From contig OY970364.1 in NCBI GenBank assembly GCA_963718565.1, positions 544,001 to 608,000 of the forward strand: a stretch of 64,000 bases of DNA. The letters run 5' to 3'. Within the stretch, counting starts at the first letter, position 1, and every line of letters begins with the position of its first letter. The position numbers and the translations under genes were made by a program. Below are positions 11,827 through 47,432 of the stretch, one piece after another. Source of the stretch: an uncultured Verrucomicrobiae bacterium (GTDB taxonomy: Bacteria; Chlamydiota; Chlamydiia; Chlamydiales; Rhabdochlamydiaceae). The notes beneath the pieces are model-generated. The model searched no databases, was not told the DNA's origin, and saw only the letters and a list, made by a program, of their open reading frames with translations.

Positions 11827-13326
11827 TCAAAGAAATAATTCTGTGAAAGGGCGAATTTTTTGTTCAAGCTCCTCCCATTCCTGTTCAGCAATGCTCCCTT
11901 GCACAATTCCTGTTCCTGCAAACAGATGAAGTGAGCGTTCTCGAATTAATGCAGAACGGATGGCGACATACAGATTTGCCCCCTCGGGGCTAATGATACC
12001 GATCGGTCCGCCATACCATCCGCGGTCAAAAGATTCCATTTGTCTGAGAAGCGGAACTGCTTTTTCCCGTGGGAAGCCTCCCAAAGCAGGGGTTGGATGC
12101 AAAGCCTCGATCAGTTCCTCGTCAAAAATACCCCTTCGCAAAACCACATTTAAGCGATTGTGGATATGCTGCACATGGGAGGCTTTTAAGATACTGTCCT
12201 GACCGCCCCATTTCATTTCTTTGGAAAGAGGGGAGATTGACATCTGTAAAAAATTTTTAACGATTTGGAACTCATAGCGATCTTTTGCGCTGTTGAATAG
12301 TTCTTGTTCGTACTGAAGGTCCTCATCTGAAGTTGTTCCGCGAGGCCGTGTGCCGGCCAGAACGTCTGCGCTTAAAGATTGACCAACCCTCTCGAAGAGT
12401 TTCTCTGGAGTTGCTCCTAAAAAGCAAAGCGAAGGGGAAAATTGGAAAGCAAAAATTGTCGCATGTTTGGCTTTGTCCATCAGTTGGTTTAAGCAAGACC
12501 AGATGGAAACAGGTTGTGAAAATTGCAACGTCGTCTTTCGAGCCAAAACGATTTTATTCAGTTCCCCAGAGGCGATTACCTTTAAAGCGGCATCGACATT
12601 TTCTTTCCAGAGGCTCAATGCCGGAGTTTCAAGACGGTCGATCAAGGAATAGGTTTTAGAAGGTCGCAAGCAAGAAGGTTCAATTTCAAAATGCTCACTA
12701 TCGAGCGAATTGCAGAACTCCTCGCCGCATAAAATCGCGCTTTTGGCATCTGTCGCCTTGGCGGCGGCTGCCTTCGGCCCCGGTTCGCTCCTTCGCTCAC
12801 CTGCTTTGCACTGCGAAGGTTCCCCGGACCTTCTCGTGTCTTCGCAGCCACTTATCCAAGTATGCTTTCGCCGCCGCCAACCGAACCCGCTGTGCGGGTT
12901 CTGGCAACAGGTGCCAAAATCATCGATTTTCTGCTGGCGAGGAGTTTTGCAATTCCCTCTATTCAACGAATAAAAGATTGCTTCCGTCTTTTCATCGCTC
13001 TGCGAGAGTTCGATTTGAGGTAGCCAAAAACAGGTTTTAGGGAAACCCTTCCAGGTCGTATCTTCGCGATGAGAGTTTTCCAAAAAACGGATTCCACCAT
13101 AAAGCCGCATTTCAAAGGGGGCTCCTCCGGAAAAACGCGGAATACGAGGAAAGGAAAGAAGGTTTCCCACGGCAGCGCGCGCGACCTGTCCATCACGATC
13201 CCTCCAAAAGACCTTGGGATAAAGAGGATTGTTTTCTAGCCAGCCTAAGGCATCAAGTGCGGGCAGAACTTGTTTGGACAGATTGATCCAATAGGTCCTC
13301 CCATCAATCTCAAACGGGAGGCACAT
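11827..13326 (-). CDS. menF: Isochorismate synthase carrying an 87-aa in-frame miniature-element insertion
   Basis: KIVLAR, GATPE, LAGT, LHPTPALGG, RGWYGG, AGTGIV motifs. Foreign segment RGNCKTPR...GEEFCNSLD is encoded by family A element 12702-12960. Confidence 0.93.
   Translation of the reverse strand: MCLPFEIDGRTYWINLSKQVLPALDALGWLENNPLYPKVFWRDRDGQVARAAVGNLLSFPRIPRFSGGAPFEMRLYGGIRFLENSHREDTTWKGFPKTCFWLPQIELSQSDEKTEAIFYSLNRGNCKTPRQQKIDDFGTCCQNPHSGFGWRRRKHTWISGCEDTRRSGEPSQCKAGERRSEPGPKAAAAKATDAKSAILCGEEFCNSLDSEHFEIEPSCLRPSKTYSLIDRLETPALSLWKENVDAALKVIASGELNKIVLARKTTLQFSQPVSIWSCLNQLMDKAKHATIFAFQFSPSLCFLGATPEKLFERVGQSLSADVLAGTRPRGTTSDEDLQYEQELFNSAKDRYEFQIVKNFLQMSISPLSKEMKWGGQDSILKASHVQHIHNRLNVVLRRGIFDEELIEALHPTPALGGFPREKAVPLLRQMESFDRGWYGGPIGIISPEGANLYVAIRSALIRERSLHLFAGTGIVQGSIAEQEWEELEQKIRPFTELFL
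12702..12960. mobile_element. Family A palindromic miniature element (259 bp) inside menF
   Basis: About 25-bp terminal inverted repeats (consensus AGAGGGAATTGCA(G/A)AACTCCTCGCC), AT on both flanks, nested internal stems; about 11 differences from the copy at 46572-46830. Confidence 0.92.
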
Positions 13327-14041
13327 CCTTATCTCCCTGATAGACTGTGACAATGCCGCCAAATAGGGGATTTTCTTGAACATGAACAAATCCGGCGGCG
13401 CGCATCAGTCCGCAGAATCTTTCGCCCTGAGGAAAAGTTTCGATCGTTTTGTTAAGATACCGGTATGCGTCGAAATTTTTAGAAATGGCCCCGCCAATGC
13501 GTGGAAGACAATGGCGCAGATAAATGAGATGCACCGATTTTAACCATTTTTTTCTGGGAATCGTTCCCTCGAGAATCAGCACCCTCCCTCTAGGTTTTAA
13601 AACGCGACGAAATTCTTTAAATGCAGCCATGATGTCTGTCACATTGCGGATTCCAAAGGAAACGGTCACACATTCAAAATAATTATCCGGGAAGGGGATT
13701 TCAAGGGCGCTTGCGATATGAAAATTGACTTTATTCGCATAAGGTTTCTTGACGATCTTTTGTTTGGCGATTTCGATCATCGCAGAGGCAAGATCAATGC
13801 CCACGACAGAGTTAATCGAGGGATTTTTTTCTATCAGCGCAATGACCTGATCGCCGGTACCCGTTGCACAATCGAGAACCCGCATTTCTTTTTGATGGGG
13901 CAAAAAAGAGCAGAGCCGTTTTCGCCATAGCTGATCCATTCCAAACGTCATGACGCGATTAACGCAATCGTAAGTTGGAGAAATCTGATCGAACATTTTC
14001 CAGACTTCGTGACGAGAAGGAACTTCCAGCTCTTTTTTCAT
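13310..14041 (-). CDS. menG: Demethylmenaquinone methyltransferase (UbiE/MenG)
   Basis: VWKMFDQISPTYDCVNRVMTFG, VLDCATGTGD, SFGIRNV, RVLKPRG, AYRYL. Confidence 0.93.
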   Translation of the reverse strand: MKKELEVPSRHEVWKMFDQISPTYDCVNRVMTFGMDQLWRKRLCSFLPHQKEMRVLDCATGTGDQVIALIEKNPSINSVVGIDLASAMIEIAKQKIVKKPYANKVNFHIASALEIPFPDNYFECVTVSFGIRNVTDIMAAFKEFRRVLKPRGRVLILEGTIPRKKWLKSVHLIYLRHCLPRIGGAISKNFDAYRYLNKTIETFPQGERFCGLMRAAGFVHVQENPLFGGIVTVYQGDKDVPPV

Positions 14042-14109
14042 CAATACCTTTTCCCGTAGAAAAGATCGGAAGAATAACAGCAAAGATTTTAACTTGTAAA
14101 GAGATTTAT

Positions 14110-45813: not shown

Positions 45814-46413
45814 TTATTTATTTTGAATTTTCAAATGAGAAATATCATTCCATAGAGTTAAAACATGAGCATCGCGTTCAAATCCTAAGATTGACAGTGA
45901 GGCCGGATACAAAGCGAATAGCCGACCTTCCTGTGCCGTTAACTGCAGCCACCTAGCTGCAAGGGCCCTCAAGAAATGTCCATGAGAAAATAGCGCAACA
46001 TCTCCATGTAGAGATTGGATCTTTGTCAACACCCGATTTGTCCTTGCATTCACATCAGCAATGCTTTCACCCCCTGGAGCCCCGTTGGAAAAAATATTCC
46101 AATGCGGCATTTTTTTATGGATCTCTTCTGTTTTTAGCCCTTCGAATTCTCCATAATTCCATTCAAGCAAGTCTGAATCGAGTCTTGCCTTTTTTAGAAA
46201 CCCTGCAATTTCACAACTGTTTGCGGCTCGCTGTAAGGGGCTTGTTAAAATCGTCTCAAAGGCGTGACCTTTAAGCCGCATTCCCAGCAGTTCCGCTTGC
46301 ATTTCCCCATTTTTTGTCAGAGGAATATCCGTTAGCCCCGTGTGCCTCCCATTTAAAGTCCACTCGGTTTCGCCATGTCGAATGAGATAGATTTTTTTAT
46401 GGGGAAATTGCAA
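45814..46413 (-). CDS. Histidine phosphatase / phosphoglycerate mutase family protein
   Basis: LIRHGETEW, SPLQRA, EWNYGEFEG, FSHG; TTG start with GAGGA SD. Confidence 0.93.
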   Translation of the reverse strand: MQFPHKKIYLIRHGETEWTLNGRHTGLTDIPLTKNGEMQAELLGMRLKGHAFETILTSPLQRAANSCEIAGFLKKARLDSDLLEWNYGEFEGLKTEEIHKKMPHWNIFSNGAPGGESIADVNARTNRVLTKIQSLHGDVALFSHGHFLRALAARWLQLTAQEGRLFALYPASLSILGFERDAHVLTLWNDISHLKIQNK

Positions 46414-46496
46414 AACAGATTCCTCTTCTGATATACTGGGCGCAGTATAACTTCTTAATAAAGTCAGTCGGGATAAATTGTCCAGAAAGGAAGCTT

Positions 46497-47432
46497 ATGC
46501 CCTTAAAAGTGATCGCCCCGGACAAGAGCACTATTTCGATTCACTCTCCAAAAGATTTCGAGGCTGTTTTTAGAGGGAATTGCAGAACTCCTCGCCGCAT
46601 AAAATCGCGCTTTTGGCACCTGTTGCCTTGGCTGCGGCTGCCTTCGGCCCCGGTTCGCTCTTCCGCTCACCTGCTTTGCACTGCGAAGGTTCCCCGGACC
46701 TTCTCGTGTCTTCGCAGCCACTTATTCAAGTATGCTTTCGCCGCCGCCAACCGAACCCGCTGTGCGGGTTCTGGCAACAGGTGCCAAAATCATCGATTTT
46801 TTGCTGGTGAGGAGTTCTGCAATTCCCTCTTTAAAATAGGTTATTTGTGTTCGATTGGATTTAAGGATAGCAAAACTCAAGAAAAAATCGAAAAACGTTG
46901 TGCCAAGGCACTCCGCAAAGGATGGATAACTTCACGTCAAAAATGGTTAGGCGATTACCATGCTCAAGGAATCCGTGGAAATATCCCTCTTGATTTGACA
47001 ATTGCTTGGATCGATGAAGAGATTGGTTACGGAGTTTGGACTAACGTCGATATTCCTGCCCAAGCTTACATTGGCGAATACACAGGCATCCTTCGCAAGC
47101 GATTTTTTTGCGGAAGGTGGAAGAACCACTATTGTTTTGATTATAATATTGGAGAAGGAAGAAGCAGCGGTTATGTGATCGATGCTCAAGATTTCGGTAA
47201 TTATACGCGTTTCATCAATCACAGTTTTGAACCCAATCTTGAACCTGTTTCAACCTATTGCGATGGCCTCATTCACGTCATCCTCTATGCTCCAAAATTC
47301 ATCTCGGCGGGGACACAGCTTTGCTACGATTACGGAGAGGATTATTGGAAGAAGCGCGGCATACCCAAACAACTTGAAAAGTGGGTGTATACTGAAGAAA
47401 CTTCAAAAATTGGTTTTTTTAGCCCCCTGTAA
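46497..47432 (+). CDS. SET-domain methyltransferase with an 87-aa in-frame miniature-element insertion
   Basis: GYGVW, IGEYTG, IDAQDFGNYTRFINHSFEPN, QLCYDYG; foreign segment RGNCRTPR...GEEFCNSL; last ~14 aa are repeat-derived. Confidence 0.92.
   Translation: MPLKVIAPDKSTISIHSPKDFEAVFRGNCRTPRRIKSRFWHLLPWLRLPSAPVRSSAHLLCTAKVPRTFSCLRSHLFKYAFAAANRTRCAGSGNRCQNHRFFAGEEFCNSLFKIGYLCSIGFKDSKTQEKIEKRCAKALRKGWITSRQKWLGDYHAQGIRGNIPLDLTIAWIDEEIGYGVWTNVDIPAQAYIGEYTGILRKRFFCGRWKNHYCFDYNIGEGRSSGYVIDAQDFGNYTRFINHSFEPNLEPVSTYCDGLIHVILYAPKFISAGTQLCYDYGEDYWKKRGIPKQLEKWVYTEETSKIGFFSPL
46572..46830. mobile_element. Family A palindromic miniature element (259 bp) inside the SET gene
   Basis: Perfect 22-bp TIR AGAGGGAATTGCAGAACTCCTC; TT on both flanks; perfect 17-bp inner stem ttttggcacctgttgcc. 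Confidence 0.93.

What the first reader, a model, noticed from the sequence alone, without database searches (positions are those of the whole stretch)
12702..46830. Palindromic miniature elements insert in frame into intact chlamydial proteins (RPE-like peptide-cassette system)
Seen: three conserved genes carry TIR-bounded hairpin elements whose length plus 2-bp target duplication is exactly 3n: menF 259+2=261, SET 259+2=261, sod 160+2=162. Removing them restores clean frames (YSLN|SEHF, EAVF|KIGY, MKFKC|ILPS). Related intergenic copies are not 3n (170+2 at 50081, 162+2 at 28356). All three sites lie outside the catalytic cores. Known: this behaviour defines Rickettsia palindromic elements; I know of no description in Chlamydiota. 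Inference: a non-autonomous MITE population is adding novel peptides to proteins, filtered by selection. Three cases in 64 kb suggests many more genome-wide.
Basis: partly seen in the sequence, partly recalled or inferred. Interest (0 to 1): 0.92.

Follow-up and report, generated by a model that had tools for sequence, protein, structure and literature searches.

The report
In-frame mini-transposons inside chlamydial genes
Small jumping DNA elements sit inside three intact-looking genes of an environmental chlamydia without breaking their reading frames, one of about thirty such genes in this genome, a behaviour long known from Rickettsia but not found in print for chlamydiae.

Summary
Confirmed. 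menF and a SET-domain gene each carry a 257-bp hairpin element (4-bp target duplication, not 2; net 261), and sod carries a 160-bp element (TA duplication, net 162). Orthologues lack them (24, 10 and 11 examined). Genome-wide, 36 of 40 elements lying wholly inside a gene's reading frame are 3n, against 51 of 153 elsewhere. About 33 genes are hit, including tsaB, tsaE, mutY, oppF and rluA. Length is inherited by subfamily: 8 of 9 A257-type copies sit in genes, 0 of 17 of the sister A258-type. A 1575-bp IS5/IS1182-type element with the same ends exists in a Rhabdochlamydiaceae genome; only fragments remain here. Inserts cluster near gene starts, often in signal peptides, and their peptides evolve almost neutrally (pN/pS 0.82). 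Best reading: selfish MITEs whose 3n, stop-poor subfamilies survive at permissive sites as tolerated cargo. They work like Rickettsia palindromic elements but do not match RPE1-3 models. Translation is untested (no RNA run listed). The scan already noted this system at other loci of this genome.

The parts
11827..13389 (-). menF, isochorismate synthase in the men operon; open frame of 520 aa including the insert
   Evidence: Pfam Chorismate_bind; TIGR00543 above cut-off; Foldseek top hit E. coli MenF
12703..12959 (.). Family A MITE, subfamily A257; 4-bp target duplication TATC/TATT (one mismatch); adds 87 codons in the linker before the catalytic domain
36113..36985 (+). Fe/Mn superoxide dismutase with an N-terminal signal-like peptide (probable start at 36113)
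36129..36288 (.). Family B MITE, subfamily B160; TA duplication; adds 54 codons four codons after the start, inside the signal-like peptide
46497..47432 (+). SET-domain protein gene, 311 aa including the insert
   Evidence: Pfam SET; orthologues
46573..46829 (.). Family A MITE, subfamily A257; target duplication TTTA/TTTA; adds 87 codons after residue 25, read on the opposite strand to the menF copy
50081..50250 (.). Family B MITE, young subfamily B170 (net 172, not 3n), intergenic
28356..28517 (.). Family C MITE (net 164), unrelated to A and B; starts just after the pfk stop and overlaps the start of ORF 28442-29206
31416..31545 (.). Truncated family A copy (A182-type internal join), intergenic
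36981..37114 (.). Truncated family C copy just after the sod stop

Best explanation
Several families of non-autonomous IS-derived MITEs spread in this chlamydial genome using borrowed transposases. Family A (4-bp target duplication, mostly TNNA) has the ends of an IS5/IS1182-type element; shown by sequence, movement inferred. Families B/Bg (TA duplication) are probably moved by an IS630-type enzyme (inferred). Length is inherited within each subfamily (shown). Subfamilies whose length plus duplication is 3n and that have 2-3 stop-free frames can land in genes without breaking them. Purifying selection then removes copies except at permissive places: signal-peptide n-regions, N- and C-termini, and variable linkers (pattern shown, selection inferred). 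The mRNA is translated straight through (inferred), and the peptide is neutral or slightly harmful cargo, often removed with the signal peptide.
For: Clean insertions against orthologues in 8 of 8 genes tested. 36 of 40 ORF-contained copies are 3n against 51 of 153 elsewhere, p = 8e-11; being contained in an ORF does not itself require 3n. Outside genes, 51 of 157 are 3n, as chance predicts. A257-type: 8 of 9 in genes; A258-type: 0 of 17. The 257-bp copies share diagnostic indels, so 3n length is inherited, not repaired afterwards. Hosts include tsaB, tsaE, ybeY and lolC/E, recalled as essential or near-essential in model bacteria. All columns invariant in orthologues are kept (39, 56 and 58 columns). 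The MenF core folds confidently, with the insert as a low-confidence loop. An unrelated element hit the same MenF linker independently in G008. A cognate 1575-bp IS has the same ends and 4-bp duplications. pN/pS is 0.82. 5-prime bias: 26 of 34 copies against 16% expected.
Against: No RNA or protein evidence. The test that the host genes are still under selection since insertion was not significant (about 2 nonsense changes expected in six genes, P(0) = 0.14). 28 of 36 copies have no orthologue check. Several elements contain an internal Met, so some 5-prime copies could be only partly translated. The family A transposase is only fragmentary in this genome and was not found in 18 genus relatives. 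The IS630 link rests on the TA duplication and 3-4 shared terminal bases. Low pLDDT for the insert is expected for any segment without alignment depth.
Confidence: 0.72

Rival explanations
1. Element-level adaptation: 3n length, stop-poor frames and a hydrophobic, signal-like frame were selected because they let these MITE lineages live in coding DNA, with export signals as a special niche.
For: A257 is found almost only in genes (8 of 9), more often than the equally 3n A182 (9 of 23). Independent families have 3n subfamilies (A182/A257, B160, B169, B211, Bg166/223). A257 and A182 differ by exactly 75 bp, and Bg223 and Bg166 by 57 bp, both 3n. One A frame encodes a hydrophobic stretch and occurs only in signal-like contexts: 7 of 7 against 4 of 11 by eye, p = 0.013. 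One more copy of that frame was misfiled by the script; moved, the split is 8 of 8 against 3 of 10.
Against: Open-frame counts are not clearly above shuffles (A257 and A182 p = 0.07). The non-coding sister A258 is just as stop-poor (p = 0.008). The youngest subfamilies (B170, D131) are not 3n. With the automatic signal rule the frame bias is not significant (p = 0.33). Filtering after insertion alone gives most of these patterns.
Confidence: 0.13
2. The host genes are recent cryptic pseudogenes under relaxed selection; the inserts damage them and the frames have simply not decayed yet.
For: The genome is IS-rich. Relaxed selection is reported in a Rhabdochlamydia (PMC9723776 passages). The decay test was not significant. 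Two young non-3n copies appear to split hypothetical genes.
Against: Relaxed genes would accept non-3n inserts equally, but 36 of 40 contained copies are 3n. Conserved residues are intact. Hosts include genes recalled as essential.
Confidence: 0.08
3. The element is removed or skipped at RNA level (hairpin excision or ribosome bypass), or translation restarts inside or after it, so the peptide is not made.
For: Very stable hairpins; 5-prime clustering; internal Met codons in the B/Bg peptides.
Against: Restart would not need 3n length, yet 28 of 32 contained 5-prime copies are 3n. Precise removal would not need stop-free frames. Translation of an RPE insert in Rickettsia guanylate kinase is reported (PMC2229807 passages). 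Mid-gene inserts (menF, mutY, lolC/E) cannot be bypassed by restarting.
Confidence: 0.05
4. Assembly artefact from collapsed repeats.
For: The left menF junction was not bridged by any listed contig.
Against: The right menF junction is bridged by contigs from two studies (X2: 12850-13251 with 0 differences; X5: 12850-13068 with 1). Site-specific target duplications, private substitutions in each copy, and in-frame relatives in other genomes.
Confidence: 0.02

Closest known systems
Rickettsia palindromic elements (RPE-1 to RPE-3; Ogata et al. 2000/2002, seen only as passages in PMC10969869, PMC2229807 and PMC3767692; the 2002 paper was not held)
   Same: Hairpin repeats of 100-260 bp with terminal inverted repeats, found both between genes and in frame in unrelated conserved genes of an obligate intracellular bacterium; exposed or terminal sites; only some subfamilies are coding-compatible.
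   Different: No match to the RPE1, RPE2 or RPE3 models above cut-off. Clear target duplications (listed as '?' for RPE in PMC2229807 Table 1) and a cognate full-length IS for family A. Several unrelated IS families contribute. Strong bias to 5-prime ends and signal peptides. Different phylum.
Bacterial MITEs with intragenic fusions: ERIC/RU-1, YPAL/RU-2 (PMC2759123, PMC2229807 passages), Coxiella QMITE1/2 (PMC5896051 passages)
   Same: IS-derived ends, target duplications, open frames fused to genes; RU-2 contributes to a predicted signal peptide.
   Different: Those fusions are described mostly at C-termini or in hypothetical genes; here about 33 genes, many of them housekeeping, carry whole elements.
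RUP of pneumococcus (IS630-mobilised MITE; PMC2229807 passages)
   Same: TA duplication and a proposed IS630 helper, as inferred for families B/Bg.
   Different: RUP has stops in all six frames and is intergenic.

Membership tests
Prokaryotic MITE | Short, no transposase, terminal inverted repeats | tested here: met
   (no Pfam family in the three inserts)
Prokaryotic MITE | Target site duplication | tested here: met
   4 bp for A (58 of 104 pairs), TA for B/Bg
Prokaryotic MITE | Multicopy and dispersed, with empty orthologous sites | tested here: met
Prokaryotic MITE | Autonomous IS sharing the ends (family A) | tested here: met
   1575-bp element in L198/L216; IS1182 and IS5 models matched below cut-off; only fragments in G000
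Prokaryotic MITE | Autonomous IS sharing the ends (families B/Bg) | tested here: inconclusive
   15 DDE_3 matches over 143 model positions in G000; one is IS630 above cut-off; only the TA duplication and 3-4 terminal bases are shared
Prokaryotic MITE | Mobilised in trans | not testable with these tools
   needs a transposition assay
Rickettsia palindromic elements | Sequence homology to the RPE families | tested here: not met
   TIGR01045 and TIGR03774: no match; TIGR03775: one match at E 0.22, below cut-off. TIGR01045: 0 of 400 genomes of the phylum. No positive control was available; RPE4, RPE5 and WPE models were not run as genome searches.
Rickettsia palindromic elements | Stable hairpin | tested here: met
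   z = -10.2 and -8.9
Rickettsia palindromic elements | Recurrent in-frame insertion in unrelated conserved genes | tested here: met
Rickettsia palindromic elements | Insert is translated and the host protein stays active | not testable with these tools
   no RNA holder listed

The most novel reading that the evidence does not exclude
Chlamydial MITE lineages from unrelated IS families have become adapted to coding DNA. They keep a 3n length through modular 3n indels, swap a shared internal hairpin module, and one reading frame of family A acts as a portable signal-peptide mimic, so that export signals are a niche in which the element persists and can remodel how proteins are exported. Sister subfamilies one base apart, with a known helper transposase, would make the origin of RPE-like coding repeats experimentally testable.
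Probability: 0.18. Interest if true: 0.75.

Novelty: new member of a known kind. Interest (0 to 1): 0.5.

Why it matters
It extends protein-coding palindromic repeats from Rickettsiales to Chlamydiota; I did not find a chlamydial case in seven literature searches. It also supplies what the reviews I read leave open for RPEs: clear target duplications, a candidate helper transposase, and sister subfamilies that differ by one base and occupy opposite genomic niches. Insert sites map where conserved proteins tolerate 50-90 extra residues. The inserts also mislead start-codon and signal-peptide annotation in these genomes.

Tried and rejected
No RNA holder listed. Single-sequence AlphaFold of MenF failed (pLDDT 33.6); it was redone with an alignment. 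Classifying sites by coding score of 50-codon flanks was too noisy and was replaced by gene-call context. The orthologue search for the apparently split gene at G000 1156638 found none in 18 genus relatives, so that disruption is unverified. The test for host-gene decay was underpowered. Rfam found no match in the window. I recalled that a Rickettsia RPE-1 variant has ends like family C; this could not be tested. The RPE1 model found nothing in G000, 400 phylum genomes or four other genomes, and a plasmid search found no real match. Rejected: the 2-bp duplication for family A; repair of frame after insertion as the general source of 3n length (shared indels; one copy, 1018889, does have its own compensating base); and selection on the insert peptide sequence (pN/pS 0.82). 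Homologue searches with insert peptides returned few proteins (6, 12 and 4), mostly from this genome; these searches are weak for short inserts in long proteins.
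Full report
Setting. The window lies in a single-contig 2.28-Mb genome, G000, rich in repeats: 643 regions with 3 or more copies. No tool named the organism. Its CTP synthase is 86% identical to that of G443 and 73% to that of G442. The records behind these handles are titled Candidatus Acheromyda pituitae and uncultured Rhabdochlamydiaceae. 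Earlier scan notes call the organism a Rhabdochlamydia. I take it as an environmental chlamydia; that Acheromyda is chlamydial is recalled.

The observation. menF (11827-13389, minus), sod (36113-36985) and the SET gene (46497-47432) are each open across a hairpin element. In alignments, none of 24 MenF orthologue loci has the 87-residue segment (two of those frames are partial). 10 of 10 SET and 11 of 11 SOD orthologues lack theirs. All columns invariant among orthologues are retained in G000 (39, 56 and 58 columns). The menF and sod elements fold at -142 and -64.6 kcal/mol, z = -10.2 and -8.9. With a 23-sequence alignment, AlphaFold gives MenF a confident core (mean pLDDT 81), with residues 146-227 below 50. 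The best fold match is E. coli MenF, E 1e-35. The low score of the insert is expected without alignment depth, so this shows only that the core can fold around it. Contigs of two studies bridge the right menF junction, but none listed bridges the left one. Both continue inward as the shorter A182 form, which may reflect collapsed repeats.

Anatomy. Family A (menF, SET) is 257 bp with a 4-bp duplication: 58 of 104 end pairs match at 4 bp and 6 at 2 bp. Among 56 exact sites the base next to the element varies (37 A, 11 T, 7 C, 1 G). Family B (sod) has TA duplications. A pattern scan of public genomes found a 1575-bp element with family A ends, 4-bp duplications and a 390-aa DDE transposase at two places in a Rhabdochlamydiaceae genome, and a 75% identical one in another record. 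It matches Pfam DDE_Tnp_1 and DUF772, and the IS1182 and IS5 models below cut-off. G000 holds only fragments of this transposase (8 tblastn pieces), and 0 of 18 genus relatives matched. G000 has 15 DDE_3 matches over nearly the whole model; the one tested is IS630 above cut-off. These elements have TA-flanked ends that start like those of family B; that they move family B is inference.

Census. From typed end motifs I found 240 end pairs, 193 with an acceptable duplication. The other 47, and copies of untyped families, were dropped, so counts are floors; one in-frame copy near G000 1290331 was missed this way. With self-trained gene calls, 40 elements lie wholly in a gene's stop-to-stop frame: 36 are 3n and 4 are not. 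Of the other 153, 51 are 3n (Fisher p = 8e-11). Two of the 36 lack an upstream start, one is weak, and two are nested in dacB, which leaves about 33 genes. Named hosts include marC, tolC, ybeY, lolC/E, oppF, tsaB, tsaE, mutY, dacB and rluA. Five more genes were checked against 4-5 orthologues each (tsaE, tsaB, mutY, oppF, rluA), and all five show the insert absent in relatives. So 8 of 36 copies are orthologue-verified. Two identical young non-3n copies appear to split hypothetical genes; for the one searched, no orthologue was found. Frame-breaking hits near gene starts cannot be counted without orthologues.

Why 3n. Length is a subfamily trait. All 257-bp copies share diagnostic indels against the 258/259-bp sisters. 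Typed at that site, 8 of 9 A257-type copies are in genes against 0 of 17 A258-type (p = 6e-6). Likewise B160 has 3 of 3 in genes, B169 4 of 7, Bg166 4 of 5 and A182 9 of 23, while B170 has 0 of 19 in frame. So the filter acts on copies of subfamilies that happen to be compatible. Evidence for adaptation of the elements themselves is thin. A257 and A182 have 3 open frames of 6 (p = 0.07 against shuffles), and the non-coding A258 is equally stop-poor. Substitutions in in-frame copies give pN/pS 0.82 (80 nonsynonymous, 30 synonymous). A test for decay of six host genes expected about 2 nonsense changes and saw none, which is not significant.

Where they land. 26 of 34 copies with an upstream start lie within about 60 codons of the frame's beginning, against 16% of coding DNA. 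Of these 26, 12 are followed by a signal-like hydrophobic stretch, against 127 of 1254 background genes (p = 4e-6, crude hydropathy rule). The sod insert is of this kind. One family A frame encodes its own hydrophobic stretch and was seen only in such contexts: 7 of 7 against 4 of 11 by eye (p = 0.013), but 4 of 7 against 3 of 11 by the automatic rule (p = 0.33). The script misfiled one further copy of that frame. This lead came from scan notes e1-7717421 and e1-7717063 and is post hoc. An unrelated TA-type element of about 60 codons sits in frame in the same MenF linker in G008, which marks that linker as permissive.

Breadth. Family A DNA matches 15 of 18 genus relatives, often only through a shared internal module. 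The Bg166 peptide was found in 3 of 200 genomes of the order, including another genus and another family. TA-flanked in-frame copies were read out in folC and two other genes of G217, and a related peptide in ttcA of G001. Family A-type ends flank in-frame inserts in other records too.

Comparison with what is known. In-frame palindromic inserts are established for Rickettsia, including a translated, active guanylate kinase. They are cited for Wolbachia and Methanocaldococcus, and fusions are described for enterobacterial and Coxiella MITEs. I saw passages only of PMC10969869, PMC3733652, PMC2229807, PMC3767692, PMC2759123 and PMC5896051. Ogata 2002 was not held, and no supplements were read; supplementary tables of MITE surveys could list chlamydial copies. 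Seven searches listed no chlamydial case. Term look-ups found no 'MITE' or 'palindrom' in the Rhabdochlamydia genome paper PMC9723776, no 'Chlamyd' in the MITE survey PMC11602168, and only a cited Cardinium MITE in PMC13229535. Most subscription papers are not covered. The elements meet the MITE definition and work like RPEs, but fail the homology test for RPE1-3 (no positive control).

Verdict. This is a real, genome-wide phenomenon of a known kind in a phylum where I found no report of it. It is best explained as tolerated selfish cargo (0.72). The 'peptide-cassette system' reading is not shown. Its value lies in the identified helper element and in the one-base sister subfamilies. The scan had already recorded the same system at other loci of this genome.

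Noticed in passing
window 28356-28517; L273, L276, L322, L286, L325: Family C ends also bound about 900-bp two-frame IS5-family elements and many 61-300-bp MITEs in metagenomes, several in frame (e.g. in a glycerol-3-phosphate dehydrogenase gene). I recall similar ends for a Rickettsia RPE-1 variant; if true this would point to the RPE-1 helper transposase. Untested on real Rickettsia DNA.
   Followed up: partly
window 46649-46720; G000 762024-762246: A257 and Bg223 share a 72-bp internal module (82% identity) although their ends belong to different IS families; the shorter forms A182 and Bg166 lack it.
   Followed up: partly
L090 (G000 1736414-1736759): An A182 copy is nested in frame inside a B160-type copy, itself in frame in the dacB signal peptide, adding 116 codons.
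   Followed up: partly
window 14111-14239, 23670-23768, 47507-47611: Fragments of a GxxExxY-family gene with a flanking repeat; 7 matches to TIGR04256 in the genome and about 26-31 related DNA loci, none a full gene in the window.
   Followed up: partly
window 14325-14935, 25104-25234, 38069-38199, 62015-62479: Family D MITEs with 8-bp duplications; the 131-bp form is young and non-3n. A longer copy overlaps an IS66 transposase fragment at 61820-62329.
   Followed up: partly
window 15222-17024 and 58989-60221: Two genes with NEL-type E3 ubiquitin ligase domains; the first has 96-bp and 33-bp tandem repeats.
   Followed up: no
window 51249-58872: Complete trp operon with trpR and a DAHP synthase, plus a full menaquinone operon at 5329-14128 and G6PD genes; from recall, this is rich for a chlamydia.
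   Followed up: no
window 62941-63898: IS1634-type transposase fragment in a repeated region at the window end.
   Followed up: no
L083 (G000 1156638) and L068 (G000 445390): Identical young B170 copies appear to split two hypothetical genes; no orthologue was found for the first.
   Followed up: partly
window 49404-49733: HigB-like toxin gene with a lone family A end at about 49719 overlapping its 5-prime region.
   Followed up: no
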